A DNA stretch of 64,000 nt from Nitrospirota bacterium. GTDB taxonomy: Bacteria > Nitrospirota > UBA9217. Shown here piece after piece: positions 32,634-39,022 of the stretch. The stretch spans positions 1 to 64,000 of the forward strand of contig CAVVOB010000012.1 in NCBI GenBank assembly GCA_963749655.1, given 5' to 3'. The first letter of the stretch is position 1. Each line of letters opens with the position of its first letter. The translations under genes and the position numbers were made by a program. The notes beneath the pieces were generated by a model, which had not been told where the DNA came from, did not search any database, and saw only the letters and a list, made by a program, of their open reading frames with translations.

Positions 32634-33020
32634 TTATTTCAGCCCGTCCACGCTCCATTTGACGCCGCCCCGGCAGGCAATGAGGAGGAAAACGAAACAG
32701 TAGAGAACGGCCAGTTCGCCTTGGTTCACTGCCGGAAAGAACTTGGGTCCCAGCTGGAACTTCCAGTGGAACTGGATATACGCCACTGCCATCTCGCCGC
32801 TGCAGAGGAAGGCCGCCCAGCGGGTCTTCAATCCCAGCATGACCGCGAGCCCCGCGACGAGCTCGATGAGCCCGCCGAACCAGAGTTGGGACCCCAGGGG
32901 CGGCTGGAAGTCGGAGAGTATTCCCAGGATCTTCTGGGCGCCGTGGAACGCGAACATGAATCCGGTGATGATTCGCATCAATGCATAGGCGTGGTCGGAG
33001 TACTTTGCAAGCATTTTCAT
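32634..33020 (-). CDS. DoxX family membrane protein
   Basis: RIITGFMFAFHGAQK, SGEMAVAY, NQGELAVLYCFVFL. Confidence 0.9.
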   Translation of the reverse strand: MKMLAKYSDHAYALMRIITGFMFAFHGAQKILGILSDFQPPLGSQLWFGGLIELVAGLAVMLGLKTRWAAFLCSGEMAVAYIQFHWKFQLGPKFFPAVNQGELAVLYCFVFLLIACRGGVKWSVDGLK

Positions 33021-33198
33021 GAGGGCATCCTCCTTAACTGTGCGGTGATGGCATCTTGATAGAATTATACCCCCGGGAAAAGGAGGCGGGGGATTTGAGG
33101 GGAAATATTCTCTGGAAGACCGGCATGGGTCAGACGGAGGGCGCCTTCCTATCGGGGGGCGATCTTCCGGTGAATCGTATCAATCCCGCCGGGGCCTG

Positions 33199-34611
33199 CT
33201 AGGAAGGGGTATCAGGTCCATCTGGACGGGATAGCAGCGGGAGGGGAATATTTACCGACACACAGGTGCCGGCATCGGAGGTGAACATGACGGTGCCGCC
33301 GATTTCGGCGGCGCGGACCTTCATATTCGATACGCCGCGGCCCTTGCCGGAATGCGCAGCATGGTCGTAGCCGAGCCCGTTGTCCCGAATGGTAAGCGAG
33401 ATTCGTTCCTTGTTCACCTGAAATCCCACGGTGACATTTTTTGCTTTCGAATGCTTGATGACGTTGGTGAGGGCCTCCCGGTAGATCCGGAACAGGTGCA
33501 GGCACAGAAGGCTTCCCGGCCTCGTAACGCTTTCATCAATTTCCGCTTTTAAATCGAATGCGATCGCGTGGTGCTCGACGGTCTTTGTGCCCCGGTTGCG
33601 CAGCTCGGCGATGAGCGTGTGCCAGTTCAGATCGTTCCGGTCGAGACTGTACATAAGGCTCCTGATCTCTCCCATCCCTTCGCGCGACAGCTCCAGAATC
33701 GTATTCAGCGATTTGCTGATATCCTCCTGCGAAGATGCTTTCAGGGCGACTTCGGTGAGCATGCATATGTTCGTCGTTATGCCGCCGATGCCGTCGTGAA
33801 TGTCCATGAGAATCTTTTGAAACGCCTGCTGGGCCGCCCGGCGCTCATCAAGCATCGTATTAAATGCTGTTGCAAGCTTTCCTACTTCGTCCGTTCCCGT
33901 TACGGGCACCTGGGTGACTATGCCTCCCTGGCCCATGACCCTCACATTCTCAGTCAGCGCCTCCAGAGGATGCGTGATTTTTTTCACCCCCAGATATACG
34001 ACAAAGGCGCTCGCGCAGATGAAAATAAAGGCGATGATCGCATTTCGTTTCAGCATGCACAGGATCTCCCGGTCCAGGGCTTCTTTGCCCAAAACGATCC
34101 TTACATGCCCGATCACGCGGGTATTCGTGCCGGGCTCCTGATCGCCGAAATAGAGCACCTTTTCTTCATTCGGATAAATCGTTAGAACGACGGGCTTCAT
34201 GAACTCCAGCGTACGATCGGTAGCCTGTGTCGGCGTGGCCAGTTCCGTTTTTATGACCTCATCAGGCGTCCCGGGTTCCCGATTAAAATCTGTATTCGCC
34301 GACGATTTGCTGATCACGTATAACTGCTTCATGTCGGCGTTGTATATTTCCACGAGAACGACGTCCGGTTCAGCGGCTACACCGGCGGCAACGTCCTTCA
34401 AAAGATCCCTGTTTTCCGCAAAAACGCCCGTCCGAGAACTGTATGCAAGGAGGTTCGTCAGCAGCTCGCCCTTGTTCGTGAGCTCCTTTCGCACCCGTCG
34501 CTCCTCCGAGAAAACGGCGAAAAGCGTATAGACCGTGAGCATGGTCACAATAATGAGAATGGATGCGCTGAGCAGCCTGAATACGAGGCCTTTTTCAGGG
34601 AATAATTTCAT
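33199..34611 (-). CDS. Membrane sensor histidine kinase (periplasmic domain, HAMP, HisKA_3-type H-box, HATPase)
   Basis: Two TM helices, DEVGKLATAFNTM, DIHDGIGG, EALTNVIKHS, DNGLG, GRGVSNM; GGAG RBS before ATG at 34611. Confidence 0.9.
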   Translation of the reverse strand: MKLFPEKGLVFRLLSASILIIVTMLTVYTLFAVFSEERRVRKELTNKGELLTNLLAYSSRTGVFAENRDLLKDVAAGVAAEPDVVLVEIYNADMKQLYVISKSSANTDFNREPGTPDEVIKTELATPTQATDRTLEFMKPVVLTIYPNEEKVLYFGDQEPGTNTRVIGHVRIVLGKEALDREILCMLKRNAIIAFIFICASAFVVYLGVKKITHPLEALTENVRVMGQGGIVTQVPVTGTDEVGKLATAFNTMLDERRAAQQAFQKILMDIHDGIGGITTNICMLTEVALKASSQEDISKSLNTILELSREGMGEIRSLMYSLDRNDLNWHTLIAELRNRGTKTVEHHAIAFDLKAEIDESVTRPGSLLCLHLFRIYREALTNVIKHSKAKNVTVGFQVNKERISLTIRDNGLGYDHAAHSGKGRGVSNMKVRAAEIGGTVMFTSDAGTCVSVNIPLPLLSRPDGPDTPS

Positions 34612-34615
34612 TTCG

Positions 34616-35566
34616 CTACTCCACTTTTTCCGCATTTCGAATTGCCTCTTCGTCGAGCCGTAATCCGATTTTTGCAGCAACCTTCGTGTTCACGATGAGG
34701 TGGGGGGTTCTTGCATAAGCGCGAGAGGGAGCTCTTTCGCCCCCGGTCAGGTGCCGTACCTGCTCTCCGGCCTGGACTCCCATATCGTAGGGGTCAATCG
34801 TCAATGCGGCCACCGCCCCTCGCTCGACGTATTTTTTTGCGAAGGAGAAGACCGGCAGCTTGTTCTGAAAGGAAAAGAGCATCAGGTACTCGATTGTTTC
34901 GGAGTTGACGAGCGTCGAATCCGGCAGCATCCACAGAATATCAACCTTGTCCCGCAGTTCATTCAAAGCCGCAGGCACCTGCTGCGGATTGCCGACCGGC
35001 TTGATGATCAGGGTCATCCCTCTGTTCCGGGCGACGGCTGACGCCTCCTCGACGAAGGGGCCCGTATGTTCAGGGTCAAAGAGCACCCCGATCCTTTTGG
35101 CCGAGGGAAAAAGCGGGGCCATGGCTGCAAAGTACGTTGCCGGCGCAATGTCCATGCTCACGCCCGATACGTTGTCCGCAGAAAGAACCGCCGTTTCGGA
35201 CGGGATCACCATGGTGTAGATTATCGGAACGTCCTGGATAGTTCGCGCTTTTTTGAACGCCTTGGTGCCGACGGCGAAGATCGCGCTGGGGCGCTCGGCT
35301 TCGACGATGGCCAGCACGTCGTTGTCCGAAAGCCCCAGCTCTTTCATCGTGCAGCCGCAGGCGGTCTTGAATCCCTGAATTGCGTCACGGTAGGGTTTGA
35401 TATCGGTGTCTTTTATGACGATGACTTCATGAGCTGCTGCGGGGAGGGGCAGACCGAACAGGCACAGCATGAGCGCAGCCCCGACAACGACGGCGCTCAG
35501 TTTGCTGCCGTGAATAATGCAGGGCCGGTGAGTGGCAGATGGACGGAGGTTATGACTTGTCCGCAT
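34616..35566 (-). CDS. ABC-type periplasmic substrate-binding protein (ABC_sub_bind family), no cognate permease nearby
   Basis: Signal peptide ending PAAA-H, IFAVGT.A, GVSM, KRIGVLFDP, LWMLPD, V..GA, INTKVA..IG; start uncertain. Confidence 0.85.
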   Translation of the reverse strand: MRTSHNLRPSATHRPCIIHGSKLSAVVVGAALMLCLFGLPLPAAAHEVIVIKDTDIKPYRDAIQGFKTACGCTMKELGLSDNDVLAIVEAERPSAIFAVGTKAFKKARTIQDVPIIYTMVIPSETAVLSADNVSGVSMDIAPATYFAAMAPLFPSAKRIGVLFDPEHTGPFVEEASAVARNRGMTLIIKPVGNPQQVPAALNELRDKVDILWMLPDSTLVNSETIEYLMLFSFQNKLPVFSFAKKYVERGAVAALTIDPYDMGVQAGEQVRHLTGGERAPSRAYARTPHLIVNTKVAAKIGLRLDEEAIRNAEKVE

Positions 35567-36857
35567 TATCGTATTTGACGTCTTGAAGTACGAGCGATTG
35601 CAGCGCTTTGTCGAAATAGTGCTTTCTGCAATCGATACCCTGCATGCTTCCGTCATGGATAAGTTTCATGTACTTGCATCCCCCGAAACAGAGCGGCAGA
35701 TAGCAGCAGGAAAGGCATTTCTCGTTTTTCCAGTCGTCAAGCGCATGGGATCGCCGGTAGTCGGCCAACCCGTTCCTGAGATCGCCTACGCTGCAATGTT
35801 CCCTTCCGATCATGCCGGGGCACTTGTACAGCGTTCCGTCGAAGTTCACTACAATGTTTTCGTGAATTGCCATCATGCAAATCGCCGGACCGACCTTCCG
35901 CGTGCGAAATCCGCGCTTCAAAATTTCTTCTCTCAGAAAGGTCCCGGCGTCGATCAGCCATGGCTCTTCCGACGACATGCAGCCGTCATGAAAATCGGGA
36001 GGGGAGAATTCTCCCCGTTCGTTGATGACCGGGCCGAAACTCACGAATGAAATTTTTTCGGGGGTGAGGCCCGTGTCGAGGAAATGATCGAGCAGCCGGG
36101 GGAAGACCCGGTAGTGCTCCCGGGTATAATTGCCACCGACCTGCACATCGATCAGACCGCAGACGTCGCGGAGATTGCCGACAATAGTGTCGAACGACCC
36201 CGTGCCGGATTTGAAGGGCCTGAACAGGTCATGTACCTCGCGGGGACCGTCCAGAGTCACGCCTGCTCCGGCAAGCCCGAGAGGCTTCAGTTTTTCCACG
36301 ATGCGCCGCGTAAGCAGTGTCCCGTTCGTGATCAGGGAAAATGTGAATTCCATGTTCCGTTCTTCCGCAAGGCCCCTCATTTCCTCGGCAACACGAACGA
36401 TCATGTCAGTGCTCAAGAGCGGTTCGCCGCCGTAGAACGTGATATTGATTTCGTCCTTGTCTTCCAAGTCCCTGGACCGGACAAAAGCGGTGAATTGCTT
36501 TGCTGTCTCGACGGACAGATAGTGTTTGCCTTTTCTCGTGCCTTCGAAGCAGTATTTACATCCGAGGTTGCAGTCGAGATTGAGCACGACGAGGGCGCAG
36601 AACGCGTTGTTGCCGCTGTTCAGCTCATCGAGGTATGTGCGCATCTGCCGCTCTTCGGTCTGGGGGCTCCGCACGAGGAACCCCTCGGAGCTGAGAGTCC
36701 TGCGTTCTCCGGCCGGCAAACGGCCTTTCTCGATATCATCGAGAACCTCAGGCGAAACGCTGACCACGGACGTCGTCCGTGTTGAAAAGAGCGATACAAG
36801 ACCTGGTTCTTCAGGATCATGAAAGCGTATGCAGTATCTGGATAAGTGCATGGTCAT
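35550..36857 (-). CDS. gptM: Radical SAM/SPASM peptide maturase, geopeptide-maturase type
   Basis: CNLGCKYC, FYGGEPLL, ITNGTLL, TLDG...HD..R; SPASM Cys set (ICM..YKCP..CLSCCYLPLCFGGC..IDC); ~80-aa N-terminal extension starting MHLSRY. Subfamily call is from memory. Confidence 0.85.
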   Translation of the reverse strand: MTMHLSRYCIRFHDPEEPGLVSLFSTRTTSVVSVSPEVLDDIEKGRLPAGERRTLSSEGFLVRSPQTEERQMRTYLDELNSGNNAFCALVVLNLDCNLGCKYCFEGTRKGKHYLSVETAKQFTAFVRSRDLEDKDEINITFYGGEPLLSTDMIVRVAEEMRGLAEERNMEFTFSLITNGTLLTRRIVEKLKPLGLAGAGVTLDGPREVHDLFRPFKSGTGSFDTIVGNLRDVCGLIDVQVGGNYTREHYRVFPRLLDHFLDTGLTPEKISFVSFGPVINERGEFSPPDFHDGCMSSEEPWLIDAGTFLREEILKRGFRTRKVGPAICMMAIHENIVVNFDGTLYKCPGMIGREHCSVGDLRNGLADYRRSHALDDWKNEKCLSCCYLPLCFGGCKYMKLIHDGSMQGIDCRKHYFDKALQSLVLQDVKYDNADKS

Positions 36858-36863
36858 CTCAAT

Positions 36864-36898
36864 GAAAAAGAAAGAACAGGGGAGAGCGAGCTCTCCCC
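36864..36898 (-). terminator. Hairpin plus U-rich tract between precursor peptide and maturase
   Basis: ggggagag-cgag-ctctcccc perfect 8-bp stem (36879-36898), followed on the minus strand by tgttctttctttttc. Confidence 0.7.
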
Positions 36899-36911
36899 GA
36901 ATGAGTTGTTG

Positions 36912-37100
36912 CTAGCGACGGTACGTGATCATTGTCCCCCAGGGACAGCATAATGGCATTGAGGCTTTGGCCTTTGCCGACTTCTTCTTGGCTGTTTTCT
37001 TTTTTGCTGCCTTCTTCTTGGTTGCCTTTTTCTTTGTTGCTTTCTTCTTTGCCGACTTCTTCTTTGTTGCCTTCTTCTTGACCTTTACGCGTGCCGCCAT
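36912..37100 (-). CDS. Candidate RiPP precursor peptide, 62 aa, Lys-repeat leader and CCPWGTMITYRR core
   Basis: AGGAGGTG RBS before ATG at 37100; MAARVKV(KKKxx)7-like repeat then KAKASMPLCCPWGTMITYRR; directly upstream of the rSAM/SPASM gene. Confidence 0.8.
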   Translation of the reverse strand: MAARVKVKKKATKKKSAKKKATKKKATKKKAAKKKTAKKKSAKAKASMPLCCPWGTMITYRR

Positions 37101-37147
37101 CTTTTTCACCTCCTCATTGGATTGACTTCCCCGACATATGTCATCCC

Positions 37148-39022
37148 CTAAAACTTGCAACGAATTCCGGCTTCGTACCATCGTTCAGGGTTCTTATATA
37201 CATCTAGTACATACTGGGAGCCGTTAAAAATATTGTGGGCAGCCGCAAAGACCTCCAGGGACGAATATTTGCGAACAGACATCTTTTTTGTCATGGTGAG
37301 ATCGAATATAAAGGAATCGTATTTCCCGTTGTAGGAAGGATCCGCGTTCCAATCGACATAGCGTCCCTGGAGCAGGGCCTTGAGCGATCGCGTGTCGTCG
37401 TAGCGGAGAGCAAGATCATAGACCTGTGTCGGTATGTTGTGCAATCTCTGGCCCGTAGCGGCGTCAACTGCATCGACGTACTCCGCGCCCGCAGAGAGGG
37501 AGGTATTGTATACGGGAACGGTCTTCATGGCGAACTCAATCCCCTGGCGGCGCTGGCTTCCGCCATTTACGAGCAATATTGTCGTCGCCGAGCTTGTATC
37601 TACGGTGATGGCGTCATCGATGTCGTTCCTAAATGCGGAAAGTTTCAGCCAGAGGGACTTCACTGCAGTCGTTTCCGCTCCCACTTGGTACGCTATGACC
37701 GTCTCCATTTTGAGATCGGGATTAGCGGTGAAGTAAATGCCGTCCCCGAAGGTTTCTGCAAGCGTGGGGATGCTGAATCCCCGTGCGGCTGAAGCCCTCA
37801 GAATTGTGCTGTTCGCAATGCCGTAGGTGAGCCCCAGGCTCGGACTTGCCATATCTCCATTCGTATTGGTGCTGTCATACCGGATGCCGGGGGTGACTGA
37901 AAGCTTGTTGAACGTAAGGGTATCATTGGCATAGAAGGCAGATTTCTTAATTCCCTGCTCCCCGTTCGCCAAATTGTTCCATTTCAGCCTCTTGTCATCA
38001 TAATCGGCCCCCGCGACGATCGTCTGAGAGGGACTTTTCCAGGTCAGTTTCGCGCTTGCGCCGTATCCCTCATCAACAGCTCTGCTTTCCTGGAGAAATG
38101 CGCCCGTACTGAGCTGATGGTTCGTACTTATAAAGTCCTGACGAAGAGTTCGGAGAGAAACGTTCAGGTCCAGGTTCTTGCGGAGAGTGGAATTCAAGGC
38201 CATGGTTGCATGCAGGATTTCCAGGGAGTTCTCATAGGACAGATCAAAGAGTGGATCAAGTCCCGTATTGCGGGTTGTATTCATATAGCCGACCGCAGCA
38301 AGAATATCGGTATGGTCCGAAAGATCATAGGAGAATTTTGCATAGGTATTGTTCTCCCTGACATCGGAGTAGAGCGTCAGACCGTCCGACTGCAGGTTCC
38401 CGGCGGAGAGATAGTAACCGAACCCGTTCTGCTTGCCCCGCGCCTCCGCACGCGAGTCGATTGTGTTCCTTGTTCCGTAGGATGCGGAAACCATACCGCC
38501 GCTGTTGTCTTTCGTTCCGGACTTGGTGATGATGTTGATTACGCCCCCGAGGGCCGAGCCCCAGGCCGAGGATGCCGGACCTTTGATGATCTCGATTTTT
38601 TCGATGTTCTGCACGGGGAGAATCCCGAGGTCGGCGATATTGTTGGCGACGTTGTTCAGGATGATTCCATCAATGATCACGGTCACGTGCTTGGTGTCCG
38701 ATCCTTGTATATATGCTTGGGCTATCTGTCCGGGGCCCCCGGTCATCCATACGACGACGCCGGGGACCGTATTCAGCACCTCGGCAACGGTATGGGCGTT
38801 CATGAGCTCGATGTCCGCGGCCGTGACCACGGAAATGTTCTCGGCGGTCCGGGAAATCGGTTTGGAGCTCCGCGTTGCGGACTGCACAACAAGCTCTTCT
38901 TCTTTGAAGTACATCAGGAGAAAGTTTTTTTCTTCGTCGGGCTGCGCCAGGGCGGGGGAACAGAAGGTCAACAGATAGGCGATAGCGGCTAGAACGCTGA
39001 CGGTCTTGGCAAGTCTTTTCAT
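37148..39022 (-). CDS. TonB-dependent outer membrane receptor
   Basis: Signal peptide, VVQSATR TonB-box region, plug (AEVLNTVPGV, IEKIEIIKGPASSAWG), NPDLKME, NIFN, C-terminal F. Confidence 0.92.
   Translation of the reverse strand: MKRLAKTVSVLAAIAYLLTFCSPALAQPDEEKNFLLMYFKEEELVVQSATRSSKPISRTAENISVVTAADIELMNAHTVAEVLNTVPGVVVWMTGGPGQIAQAYIQGSDTKHVTVIIDGIILNNVANNIADLGILPVQNIEKIEIIKGPASSAWGSALGGVINIITKSGTKDNSGGMVSASYGTRNTIDSRAEARGKQNGFGYYLSAGNLQSDGLTLYSDVRENNTYAKFSYDLSDHTDILAAVGYMNTTRNTGLDPLFDLSYENSLEILHATMALNSTLRKNLDLNVSLRTLRQDFISTNHQLSTGAFLQESRAVDEGYGASAKLTWKSPSQTIVAGADYDDKRLKWNNLANGEQGIKKSAFYANDTLTFNKLSVTPGIRYDSTNTNGDMASPSLGLTYGIANSTILRASAARGFSIPTLAETFGDGIYFTANPDLKMETVIAYQVGAETTAVKSLWLKLSAFRNDIDDAITVDTSSATTILLVNGGSQRRQGIEFAMKTVPVYNTSLSAGAEYVDAVDAATGQRLHNIPTQVYDLALRYDDTRSLKALLQGRYVDWNADPSYNGKYDSFIFDLTMTKKMSVRKYSSLEVFAAAHNIFNGSQYVLDVYKNPERWYEAGIRCKF

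What the first reader, a model, noticed from the sequence alone, without database searches (positions are those of the whole stretch)
36912..37100. Precursor peptide with a histone-H1-like (xxKKK)7 leader and a CCPWGTMITYRR core
Seen: strong RBS (AGGAGGTG) and a 62-aa ORF with 24 Lys arranged as seven KKK triads at 5-residue (15-nt) period, no acidic residue, then an abrupt switch to SMPLCCPWGTMITYRR containing the only Cys, Trp and Tyr. The ORF track gives a longer start (37181) that overlaps the TBDR; annotation would probably call it histone-like or skip it. Known: RiPP leaders are usually neutral to acidic, and as I recall geopeptide precursors are short with a CC motif. Inference: CC may form thioether bridges, or W-G-T / Y-R-R may be aromatic crosslink motifs. 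The polycationic arm may bind nucleic acid, LPS or polyphosphate, aid membrane passage, or slow translation through Lys runs.
Basis: partly seen in the sequence, partly recalled or inferred. Interest (0 to 1): 0.85.

Follow-up and report, generated by a model that had tools for sequence, protein, structure and literature searches.

The report
Polylysine-leader geopeptide precursor beside its maturase
This small unannotated gene very likely encodes the substrate peptide of the neighbouring radical SAM enzyme, an uncharacterised "geopeptide" system, and it is unusual because the guide part of the peptide has grown into a run of lysine-rich five-residue repeats.

Summary
Window 37100..36912 (-) encodes a 62-aa peptide with 24 Lys, seven KKK triads at a 5-residue period, no acidic residue, and the tail CCPWGTMITYRR. 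A strong RBS precedes it.

The gene 54 nt downstream scores 582.7 bits (cut-off 400) on TIGR04280, the geopeptide radical SAM maturase. In 74 of 77 related loci a small ORF with an invariant CC and a 7-14-residue tail sits at the same place.

Most relatives have a fixed leader of about 21 aa. 17 of 76, the window's included, have Lys-rich leaders of 25-78 aa with net charge +8 to +33. These fall in three clades of the maturase tree. Close relatives differ by one in-frame 15-nt unit.

A complex model docks peptide residues 4-12 on the enzyme's N-terminal domain and C52/P53 at the SPASM cysteines. The repeats are left unplaced.

The precursor model TIGR04229 does not hit the peptide.

The cassette TonB-dependent receptor, peptide, rSAM, PF04392 binding protein, histidine kinase is conserved.

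The chemistry, probably a thioether, and the role of the lysine arm are inferred, not shown. Verdict: a new variant of a known but uncharacterised kind.

The parts
37107..37114 (-). Shine-Dalgarno sequence AGGAGGTG, 6 nt before the ATG
   Evidence: Read directly. Comparable G-rich sites precede the homologous genes.
36912..37100 (-). Precursor peptide gene: 62 aa plus stop
   Evidence: Translation. Homologous small CC ORFs are at the same position in 74 of 77 loci.
37065..37091 (-). Codons 4-12 (RVKVKKKAT): remnant of the family's N-terminal leader motif and the predicted docking strand for the maturase
   Evidence: Aligns with MAKRIAVKKK of clade relatives and with the RIVVLKKG motif of canonical leaders. 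In the complex model residues 4-12 touch rSAM residues 28-35 and 51-59.
36972..37079 (-). 15-nt (5-residue) tandem repeat array encoding (x-x-K-K-K) units
   Evidence: TRF found 7.2 copies. Units are listed. Close relatives differ by one in-frame 15-nt unit.
36945..36950 (-). Cys51-Cys52 codons (TGC TGT): the invariant CC of the family and the likely modification site
   Evidence: CC is present in all 72 distinct peptides, although it was used to find them. C52 and P53 are placed at the SPASM cysteines.
36915..36944 (-). 10-residue variable C-terminal tail PWGTMITYRR
   Evidence: Tail length in the family is 7-14 residues, mode 9. Its sequence is not conserved.
36869..36898 (-). G+C-rich hairpin with T-rich tail between the peptide gene and the rSAM gene (terminator or attenuator-like)
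   Evidence: A stem of at least 7 bp with at least 5 G-C pairs follows the stop in 65 of 76 loci, and 53 of those have at least 4 T in the next 10 nt.
35550..36857 (-). Radical SAM/SPASM maturase, 435 aa
   Evidence: TIGR04280 scores 582.7 bits against cut-off 400. C96-x3-C100-x2-C103 and C381-x2-C384-x5-C390-x3-C394 are invariant in 22 sequences. The nearest solved structure is 5wgg, E 4e-30.
37148..39022 (-). TonB-dependent receptor, 624 aa, first gene of the cassette
   Evidence: Pfam Plug plus TonB_dep_Rec_b-barrel. A homologue lies upstream on the same strand in 69 of 73 loci with enough flank. It is single-copy in the window's own genome.
34616..35656 (-). PF04392 periplasmic binding-protein-like gene. 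The listed start overlaps the rSAM gene, so the true start is probably later.
   Evidence: A homologue is present in 66 of 80 loci. A close orthologue is in 23 of 23 rSAM-positive and 2 of 41 rSAM-negative genomes of the order.
33199..34680 (-). Membrane histidine kinase (sCache_4, HAMP, HisKA_3, HATPase_c). The start is uncertain.
   Evidence: A homologue lies downstream in 42 of 80 loci, and many flanks are too short to show it.

Best explanation
The ORF is the ribosomally made substrate (RiPP precursor) of the radical SAM/SPASM enzyme encoded 54 nt downstream, in a geopeptide-type system.

Shown:
- The gene, its position and its family context.
- The invariant CC.
- The repeat nature of the leader.

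Inferred:
1. The N-terminal strand, residues about 4-12 and a remnant of the family motif R-I-V-V-L-K-K-G, docks on the enzyme's N-terminal peptide-recognition domain.
2. The Cys-Cys pair is brought to the SPASM auxiliary clusters. It is crosslinked to residues of the short variable tail, most likely by thioether bonds, as in the nearest characterised enzymes.
3. The (x-x-K-K-K)7 array is a tandem amplification of a 15-nt unit. It corresponds to the G-V-x-K-K pentad that lies between the docking strand and the core in canonical 21-residue leaders. It loops out and is not read by the maturase.
4. The hairpin after the stop lets most transcripts end after the peptide gene, so the peptide is made in excess over the enzyme.
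5. The product works with the dedicated TonB-dependent receptor, binding protein and histidine kinase of the cassette, as an imported or sensed ligand.

The benefit of the lysine arm is not known.
For: Enzyme and neighbourhood:
- The enzyme belongs to TIGR04280: 582.7 bits against a cut-off of 400. It has the rSAM and SPASM cysteine motifs.
- 74 of 77 related loci with at least 300 nt upstream have a CC-tailed small ORF on the coding strand, 72 of them within 250 nt. The reverse-complement control gave 19 of 77 and the inside-gene control 10 of 77.

The peptide family:
- Leader length is 21 aa in 31 of 72 distinct peptides. The family shares the motif M-x-x-R-I-V-V-L-K-K-G-V-x-K-K, and the tail after CC is 7-14 aa.
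- The window's five nearest relatives share MAKRIxVKKK, the KKK register and CC.
- L037, L038 and L034 differ by one 15-nt in-frame unit, while the RBS, core and hairpin are kept.
- Lys codons favour AAG in the window's peptide gene (19:5 against 46:55 in four neighbours, Fisher p = 0.003). By my count from the table, 14 of 16 polylysine peptide genes have a higher AAG share than their own rSAM gene, some only marginally.

Complex model:
- Score 0.77; the best of 3 controls scored 0.51.
- In the tool's calibration the mark was reached by 58 of 80 solved complexes and 2 of 110 mismatched pairs.
- The runs agree in at least 53% of contacts, and the partner's pLDDT is at least 43.
- The interface is peptide residues 4-12 with enzyme residues 28-35 and 51-59, and peptide residues 52-53 with enzyme residues 323, 327-328, 346, 394 and 396.

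Chemistry:
- The nearest families by HMM are Cys-peptide maturases: CefB, TIGR04463, PapB, QhpD and the SCIFF maturase.
- The nearest solved structure is 5wgg.

Operon and cassette:
- A hairpin follows the stop in 65 of 76 loci.
- The cassette is conserved.
Against: - No expression, mass-spectrometry or enzyme data exist for this or, as far as my searches show, any geopeptide.
- The curated precursor model TIGR04229 does not hit this peptide.
- The CC criterion was used to find the ORFs, so its invariance is partly circular.
- The complex pass may reflect likeness to solved rSAM-peptide complexes. One control, the same peptide with an unrelated protein, still scored 0.51, and the peptide's own pLDDT is low at 43-50.
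- No charge complementarity was found. In loci with polylysine leaders the maturase N-domain is not more acidic (mean net +0.8 against -5.3 for the ordinary basic group). The receptor, binding protein and kinase show no shift either. So nothing in the cassette visibly adapts to the lysine arm.
- No leader peptidase or exporter lies in the cassette. The arm may therefore not be a removable leader at all.
- The tail has no conserved acceptor residue, so the type of crosslink is a guess.
Confidence: 0.72

Rival explanations
1. The peptide is a true rSAM substrate, but the lysine-rich part is not a disposable leader. It stays on the mature product as a functional polycationic arm, for example to hold the crosslinked C-terminal head on a polyanion such as LPS, nucleic acid, polyphosphate or a mineral surface. 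Alternatively it carries the head across a membrane.
For: - No peptidase or exporter lies in the conserved cassette.
- Lysine-rich leaders arose in three clades of the maturase tree, which suggests selection rather than drift.
- They coexist with canonical cassettes in the same genome: G024 has L012 and L031, and G026 has L034 and L016.
- The lineage also keeps free-standing 18-20-aa polylysine micro-ORFs built from the same pentad.
- The arm is not in the predicted enzyme interface.
Against: - The receptor, binding protein and kinase show no compensating negative charge in polylysine loci.
- Repeat number varies among close relatives: leaders of 42, 47 and 50 aa. This fits a loosely constrained spacer as well as it fits a functional arm.
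- Proteases acting on RiPP leaders are often encoded elsewhere (general knowledge, not tested here).
Confidence: 0.2
2. The ORF is mainly a regulatory leader ORF. Its translation, slowed by the Lys run, controls read-through of the hairpin 13 nt after its stop. This sets expression of the rSAM, binding-protein and kinase genes, and the peptide itself has no function.
For: - A hairpin with a T tract follows the stop closely, here and in most relatives.
- Consecutive Lys codons are known to slow ribosomes (general knowledge).
Against: - The canonical relatives have no Lys run but keep the same ORF, the same invariant CC and the same leader motif.
- AAG is preferred over the more slippery AAA.
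- The peptide docks on the enzyme in the model.
- The neighbouring enzyme belongs to a peptide-maturase family.
Confidence: 0.04
3. It is an ordinary histone-H1-like nucleoid protein, or a spurious ORF in AAG-rich repeat DNA, that lies next to the rSAM gene by chance.
For: - Composition gives faint matches to the Burkholderia histone H1-like model: 12.7-14.5 bits against a cut-off of 80.
- A second frame is also open across the repeat.
- None of the 7 peptide sequences looked up, the window's among them, is held as a called protein in a 15-billion-protein collection.
Against: - The position, RBS, frame, CC and tail length are conserved over loci whose maturases are only 45-60% identical.
- Indels are in-frame.
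- The only K-rich ORF with a CC tail in the window's own genome is this one.
- The other open frame has no start or RBS and no conserved product.
Confidence: 0.03

Closest known systems
Geopeptide system (NCBIfam TIGR04229 precursor plus TIGR04280 radical SAM maturase), defined by comparative genomics. I found no experimental paper.
   Same: - The maturase is above the curated cut-off.
- The precursor is a small peptide directly upstream, with an invariant CC and a short tail.
- TIGR04229 aligns, below its cut-off, to the leader-to-CC stretch of relatives from the same set of loci.
   Different: - The leader is 50 aa instead of about 21, with net charge +25, no acidic residue and seven pentad repeats.
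- Geobacteraceae leaders in the set are acidic, net -3 to -7.
- TIGR04229 gives no hit to this peptide.
SCIFF/ranthipeptide maturase CteB (PDB 5wgg) and related thioether-forming SPASM enzymes (PapB, QhpD, SCIFF maturase families)
   Same: - Nearest solved structure, E 4e-30.
- Nearest characterised HMM families.
- It has an rSAM core, a SPASM domain and an N-terminal peptide-binding domain.
- The Cys of the substrate is placed at the auxiliary-cluster cysteines in the model.
- That CteB binds its peptide through an RRE-like N-domain is my recollection.
   Different: - Scores are far below those families' cut-offs, for example PapB 144 against 340 and the SCIFF maturase 102.6 against 425.
- The substrate has two adjacent Cys, not six spaced ones.
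- There is no conserved acceptor residue.
- The chemistry is untested.
Bacterial histone H1-like lysine/alanine-rich proteins (for example NF038053)
   Same: Lys/Ala/Thr pentad composition of the first 45 residues.
   Different: - 12.7 bits against a cut-off of 80, and only for the long 89-aa reading.
- This peptide has a CC tail and a fixed place before a peptide maturase.
RiPP clusters that carry their own TonB-dependent receptor (methanobactin-type operons, recalled; the Bacteroides Itf cluster, passage read in PMC11002830)
   Same: A ribosomal peptide, its modifying enzyme and a dedicated TonB-dependent receptor sit in one cassette.
   Different: - The enzymes and peptides are unrelated.
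- Here a PF04392 binding protein and a histidine kinase complete the cassette.
- No exporter or peptidase is present.

Membership tests
TIGR04280 geopeptide radical SAM maturase (the neighbouring enzyme) | Score at or above the curated cut-off of 400 bits over the full model | tested here: met
   582.7 bits, model positions 1-427 of 428. 582.4 bits in the genome search.
TIGR04280 geopeptide radical SAM maturase (the neighbouring enzyme) | CxxxCxxC radical SAM motif and the SPASM Cx2Cx5Cx3C motif | tested here: met
   C96, C100, C103 and C381, C384, C390, C394 are invariant in 22 aligned sequences.
TIGR04229 geopeptide (the peptide itself) | Score at or above the curated cut-off of 30 bits | tested here: not met
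   No hit even at E = 10. The window's locus is not among the whole-genome matches. Best relatives score 24.9, 16.7, 12.3 and 9.3 bits. No genome of the order matches (0 of 64). The model is evidently narrow.
TIGR04229 geopeptide (the peptide itself) | Small ORF directly upstream of a TIGR04280 gene on the same strand | tested here: met
   54-nt gap. The same arrangement holds in 72 of 77 loci within 250 nt.
TIGR04229 geopeptide (the peptide itself) | Adjacent Cys-Cys followed by a short tail | tested here: met
   C51 and C52 followed by 10 residues. The family range is 7-14.
TIGR04229 geopeptide (the peptide itself) | Leader of about 21 residues with the I-V-V-L-x-x-G motif | tested here: not met
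   The leader is 50 residues. Only R-V-K-V-K-K-K remains at the motif's place.
Thioether (sacti/ranthipeptide) RiPPs | Cys sulfur to carbon crosslink installed by the rSAM | not testable with these tools
   Inference only, from the nearest families and structure. It needs mass spectrometry or NMR of the product.
Histone H1-like DNA-binding proteins (NF038053) | Score at or above the cut-off of 80 bits | tested here: not met
   No hit for the 62-aa form. 12.7 bits for the 89-aa reading.

The most novel reading that the evidence does not exclude
Geopeptide cassettes are private peptide-ligand circuits of anaerobic Gram-negative bacteria. An rSAM-crosslinked CC peptide is released, taken back through its own TonB-dependent receptor, and read by its own binding protein and histidine kinase. 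Several orthogonal cassettes can sit in one genome. In at least three lineages the pro-peptide acquired a polylysine arm by amplification of one pentad, the same pentad that forms conserved 18-20-aa polylysine microproteins in this bacterial family. On this reading the arm is a functional tether or carrier that stays on the product, not a mere leader.
Probability: 0.15. Interest if true: 0.8.

Novelty: new variant of a known kind. Interest (0 to 1): 0.6.

Why it matters
Leader peptides of ribosomally made natural products are generally described as neutral to acidic recognition handles. This is my general knowledge. One search for lysine-rich RiPP leaders found nothing relevant.

- **A highly charged, expandable leader.** Here the leader carries +25 charge in pentad repeats. 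The repeat number changes between close relatives. The feature arose in three maturase clades, next to ordinary paralogues in the same genomes. This offers a natural experiment on how much insertion a leader-dependent radical SAM enzyme tolerates.
- **An accessible target.** It also gives a concrete, expressible target for the first biochemical look at the geopeptide family. My searches found no experimental work on that family.
- **Missed by annotation.** The gene is overlooked. None of the 7 peptide sequences looked up, the window's among them, is in a 15-billion-protein collection, and the curated precursor model does not see it.
- **A hint at function.** The tight linkage to a dedicated TonB-dependent receptor, binding protein and kinase suggests uptake or sensing of the product. 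That would be an uncommon logic for a RiPP.

Tried and rejected
- **Charge co-variation.** If the lysine arm bound the maturase's recognition domain, or the cassette's receptor or binding protein, those should be more acidic in polylysine loci. They are not. I therefore dropped "the arm is the recognition element".
- **Lysines as the target.** The 5-residue period might be the modification target, by analogy with the Cys-every-fifth family CefB, the second-best HMM hit at 154 bits against a cut-off of 600. I rejected this because orthologous maturases at 52-60% identity serve peptides without any repeat.
- **Flanking genes.** The S51 peptidase, Tag glycosylase, DoxX, PNPOx-like, FlK-like and EamA genes might have been part of the system. 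No homologue was found in 81 loci, but the flanks were at most 3 kb.
- **Known RNAs.** No Rfam family, and in particular no cobalamin riboswitch, was found at 33000..39500 at E up to 0.1.
- **Protein database search with the peptide.** 337 candidates, none at E up to 0.001. Only near lengths were searched, and the low-complexity query makes this uninformative.
- **Exact look-up.** 0 of 7 peptides found.
- **Sequencing runs.** No RNA holder is listed. One DNA run holds a small share (0.10), and I did not lay it.
- **Literature.** "geopeptide" matched anywhere returned only gageopeptide papers in the 20 listed of 21 (listing only). geopeptide, TIGR04280, TIGR04229 and geopep at word start gave 2 unrelated papers. 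"radical SAM" with Geobacter, "precursor peptide" and SPASM gave one perspective (PMC9204691); the passages I read concern SbtM, not geopeptide. Searches gave nothing relevant in their listings. In PMC11002830 I read only one passage. Subscription papers and supplements were not searchable, so "not in print" holds only for these searches.
- **Tree.** The careful search did not finish, so the quick IQ-TREE result is what I report.
- **First hairpin script.** The script measured the T tail after the wrong helix. I replaced it.

Full report
**What is there**

On the minus strand, ATG 37100 to stop 36914..36912 encodes the 62-residue peptide MAARVKVKKKATKKKSAKKKATKKKATKKKAAKKKTAKKKSAKAKASMPLCCPWGTMITYRR.
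- It has 24 Lys, seven KKK triads spaced five residues apart, and no acidic residue.
- Its only Cys, Trp and Tyr lie in the last 12 residues.
- AGGAGGTG sits 6 nt before the ATG.
- The DNA is a 15-nt tandem repeat of 7.2 copies.
- An 8-bp G+C-rich hairpin with a T-rich tail follows the stop.
- The longer mechanical ORF from 37181 starts inside the upstream gene. Relatives begin at the position of the 37100 ATG.

**Surroundings**

All five genes lie on the minus strand.

| Gene | Coordinates | Evidence |
|---|---|---|
| TonB-dependent receptor | 39022..37148 | Plug and barrel domains |
| Peptide | 37100..36912 | |
| Radical SAM/SPASM protein | 36857..35550 | TIGR04280 at 582.7 bits, cut-off 400 |
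| PF04392 binding-protein-like gene | 35656..34616 | |
| Membrane histidine kinase (sCache_4, HAMP, HisKA_3, HATPase_c) | 34680..33199 | |

- The enzyme has the C-x3-C-x2-C motif and the SPASM C-x2-C-x5-C-x3-C motif.
- Its next-best family hits are Cys-peptide maturases, far below their cut-offs.
- The nearest solved structure is 5wgg (E 4e-30).

**Relatives**

- TIGR04280 is above its cut-off in 21 of 64 genomes of the window's order. It is above cut-off in 43 of 401 sampled genomes of the phylum.
- A scan of species-representative genomes found 220 relatives. The best 80 were kept. Most are Nitrospirota/Thermodesulfovibrionales MAGs, with some Geobacteraceae and a few others.

*Small ORFs upstream of the maturase*
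- I searched the 700 nt upstream of each maturase for stop-to-stop segments of at least 25 codons ending in CC plus 3-20 residues.
- 74 of 77 loci with at least 300 nt of upstream sequence have one on the coding strand, 72 of them within 250 nt.
- The reverse complement of the same stretch gave 19 of 77. A 720-nt stretch inside the maturase gene gave 10 of 77.
- Of the 81 loci (80 plus the window's), five gave no candidate:
  - L092 and L111 lack upstream sequence.
  - L104 has C-x2-C-x-C instead of CC.
  - L060 has its peptide about 900 nt upstream, as seen in the same genome's locus L010.
  - L059 has none.
- L044 is masked and L045 is cut by the contig end. Both were dropped from the composition counts. 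That left 74 peptides, 72 of them distinct.

*The canonical peptide*
- The leader before CC is 21 residues in 31 of 72 peptides, and 19-23 in 50 of 72.
- The motif is M-x-x-R-I-V-V-L-K-K-G-V-x-K-K.
- The tail after CC is 7-14 residues, mode 9, often C-C-x-G-A/G.
- Geobacteraceae leaders are acidic, net -3 to -7.

*The curated precursor model*
- TIGR04229 has 22 positions and a cut-off of 30 bits.
- It aligns to the stretch from I-V-V-L to CC in four of the 20 relatives' peptides I scanned: 24.9, 16.7, 12.3 and 9.3 bits.
- None passes the cut-off.
- It gives nothing for the window's peptide or in any genome of the order (0 of 64).
- So the peptide family is the geopeptide family by architecture and partner enzyme, but this member lies outside the curated model.

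**The lysine-rich variant**

I used a descriptive threshold: leader of at least 25 aa, at most 2 acidic residues, net charge of at least +8. 17 of 76 peptides qualify, 16 of them distinct. Their leaders are 25-78 aa with net charge +8 to +33.

*Tree*
- I built a quick maximum-likelihood tree of 80 maturases. L092 was dropped as a fragment. The tree is midpoint-rooted with SH-aLRT support, and the careful search did not finish.
- The lysine-rich peptides fall in three groups, and well-supported branches force at least three changes.
  - The window's clade has six members, support 95.
  - One pair has identical maturases.
  - One clade has nine members, support 98.

*The window's clade*
- The peptides share MAKRIxVKKK, the KKK register and CC. 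The tails differ.
- Three close relatives differ by exactly one 15-nt in-frame unit. The RBS, core and hairpin are conserved.
- I compared this clade with the canonical leader. The repeat looks like an amplification of the G-V-x-K-K pentad that lies between the N-terminal strand and the core-proximal linker. This is inference.

*Coexistence and codon use*
- Lysine-rich and canonical cassettes coexist in single genomes: G024 has L012 and L031, and G026 has L034 and L016. They are therefore paralogous systems rather than lineage drift.
- Lys codons favour AAG in the window's gene (19:5 against 46:55 in four neighbours, p = 0.003).
- By my count from the table, 14 of 16 lysine-rich genes have a higher AAG share than their own maturase gene.
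- This is consistent with selection on a translated frame.

**How it probably works**

*The complex model*
- I modelled the maturase (22-row alignment) with the peptide (6-row alignment).
- The score was 0.77, and the best of three controls scored 0.51.
- In the tool's calibration the mark was reached by 58 of 80 solved complexes and 2 of 110 mismatched pairs.
- The runs agree in at least 53% of contacts, and the partner's pLDDT is at least 43.
- Confident contacts:
  - peptide residues 4-12 with enzyme residues 28-35 and 51-59;
  - peptide residues 52-53 with enzyme residues 323, 327-328, 346, 394 and 396.
- Of those enzyme residues, C327, C346 and C394 are invariant.
- The repeats are not in the confident interface.

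*Caveats on the model*
- Similar enzyme-peptide complexes have been solved, so the pass may show likeness only.
- The control with the same peptide and an unrelated protein reached 0.51.

*The reading I commit to*
- The N-terminal strand docks on the recognition domain.
- The repeats loop out.
- CC is modified at the SPASM clusters, most likely by thioether links into the variable tail.
- A link to backbone alpha carbons would fit the lack of any conserved acceptor side chain. This last point is inference only.

*The hairpin*
- A hairpin follows the peptide stop in 65 of 76 loci. 53 of those have a T tract.
- This fits the common RiPP arrangement in which most transcripts end after the precursor gene.

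**Evidence against parts of this reading**

- The maturase N-domain is not more acidic in lysine-rich loci.
- The receptor, binding protein and kinase are not more acidic either.
- No peptidase or exporter belongs to the cassette.
- So nothing tells us whether the arm is removed, and its benefit is unknown.
- I give 0.2 to the rival in which the arm is part of the product.

**The cassette**

- A receptor homologue lies upstream on the same strand in 69 of 73 loci with more than 1 kb of flank. Three loci have it elsewhere and one has none.
- A binding-protein homologue is present in 66 of 80 loci: 48 downstream and 18 divergent upstream. A kinase lies downstream in 42 of 80, and many flanks end too early to show it.
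- Within the order, a close binding-protein orthologue (E below 1e-70) is present in all 23 genomes with a maturase match. It is present in 2 of the 41 without one, G035 and G052.
- In the window's own genome, 86.6% complete, the receptor and the binding protein are single-copy.
- This points to uptake or sensing of the product. It does not show it.

**Comparison and novelty**

- The enzyme is a member of a known family that my searches found to be uncharacterised.
- The peptide is a new variant. It keeps the family's position, CC and tail, but it fails the curated model and the leader-length feature.
- My searches found no paper on geopeptides or on lysine-repeat leaders. These cover only open-access papers and preprints, and no supplements.

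**Verdict**

This is a real, unannotated RiPP precursor with an unusual, recurrently evolved polylysine repeat leader. The chemistry and the role of the arm remain open. Interest is 0.6.

Noticed in passing
Own genome contig C13, about 307375-307437 and 307627-307683 (loci L117, L119): Two tiny ORFs, MAAKKKAKKKATKKKATKKK (20 aa) and MATKKAPAKKAKKTTKKK (18 aa), each follow a strong RBS. In the 9 relatives' loci fetched, the peptides are identical to G000's in 6. The other three have a one-residue deletion, insertion or substitution. The DNA matches in 63 of 64 genomes of the family. There is no Rfam hit. They use the same A-T-K-K-K pentad as the geopeptide leader. One search also lists weak DNA matches to the leader repeats of four polylysine geopeptide genes. 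Their function is unknown.
   Followed up: partly
Own genome C21:36241 (-), C6:4993 (+), C18:222331 (-), C8:1870 (-) and C13:231988 (-): Other proteins in this genome carry Lys/Ala-rich low-complexity parts. They are a 119-aa Cys-rich protein with a K-rich tail, two GroES-like reading frames with K-rich parts, and a duplicated 71-aa secreted-looking K-rich protein. The lineage seems to use such tails widely.
   Followed up: no
window 33199..39022 and loci L037-L116: The geopeptide pair is embedded in a conserved five-gene cassette with a dedicated TonB-dependent receptor, a PF04392 binding-protein-like gene and a Cache/HAMP histidine kinase. No response regulator is adjacent in the window. Some genomes carry several cassettes, for example four loci on contigs with the prefix JBIOIY01 (L063, L089, L100, L103).
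   Followed up: partly
window 40847..41864 (-): Two overlapping ORFs (40847..41572 and 41289..41864) both look like parts of one beta-lactamase-family (PF00144) gene. This suggests a frameshift or an assembly error.
   Followed up: no
L104 (Geobacteraceae MAG), about 290 nt upstream of the maturase: The small ORF here ends in C-W-W-C-T-C-W-L-F instead of the usual CC tail. It may be a divergent core type in the same family.
   Followed up: no
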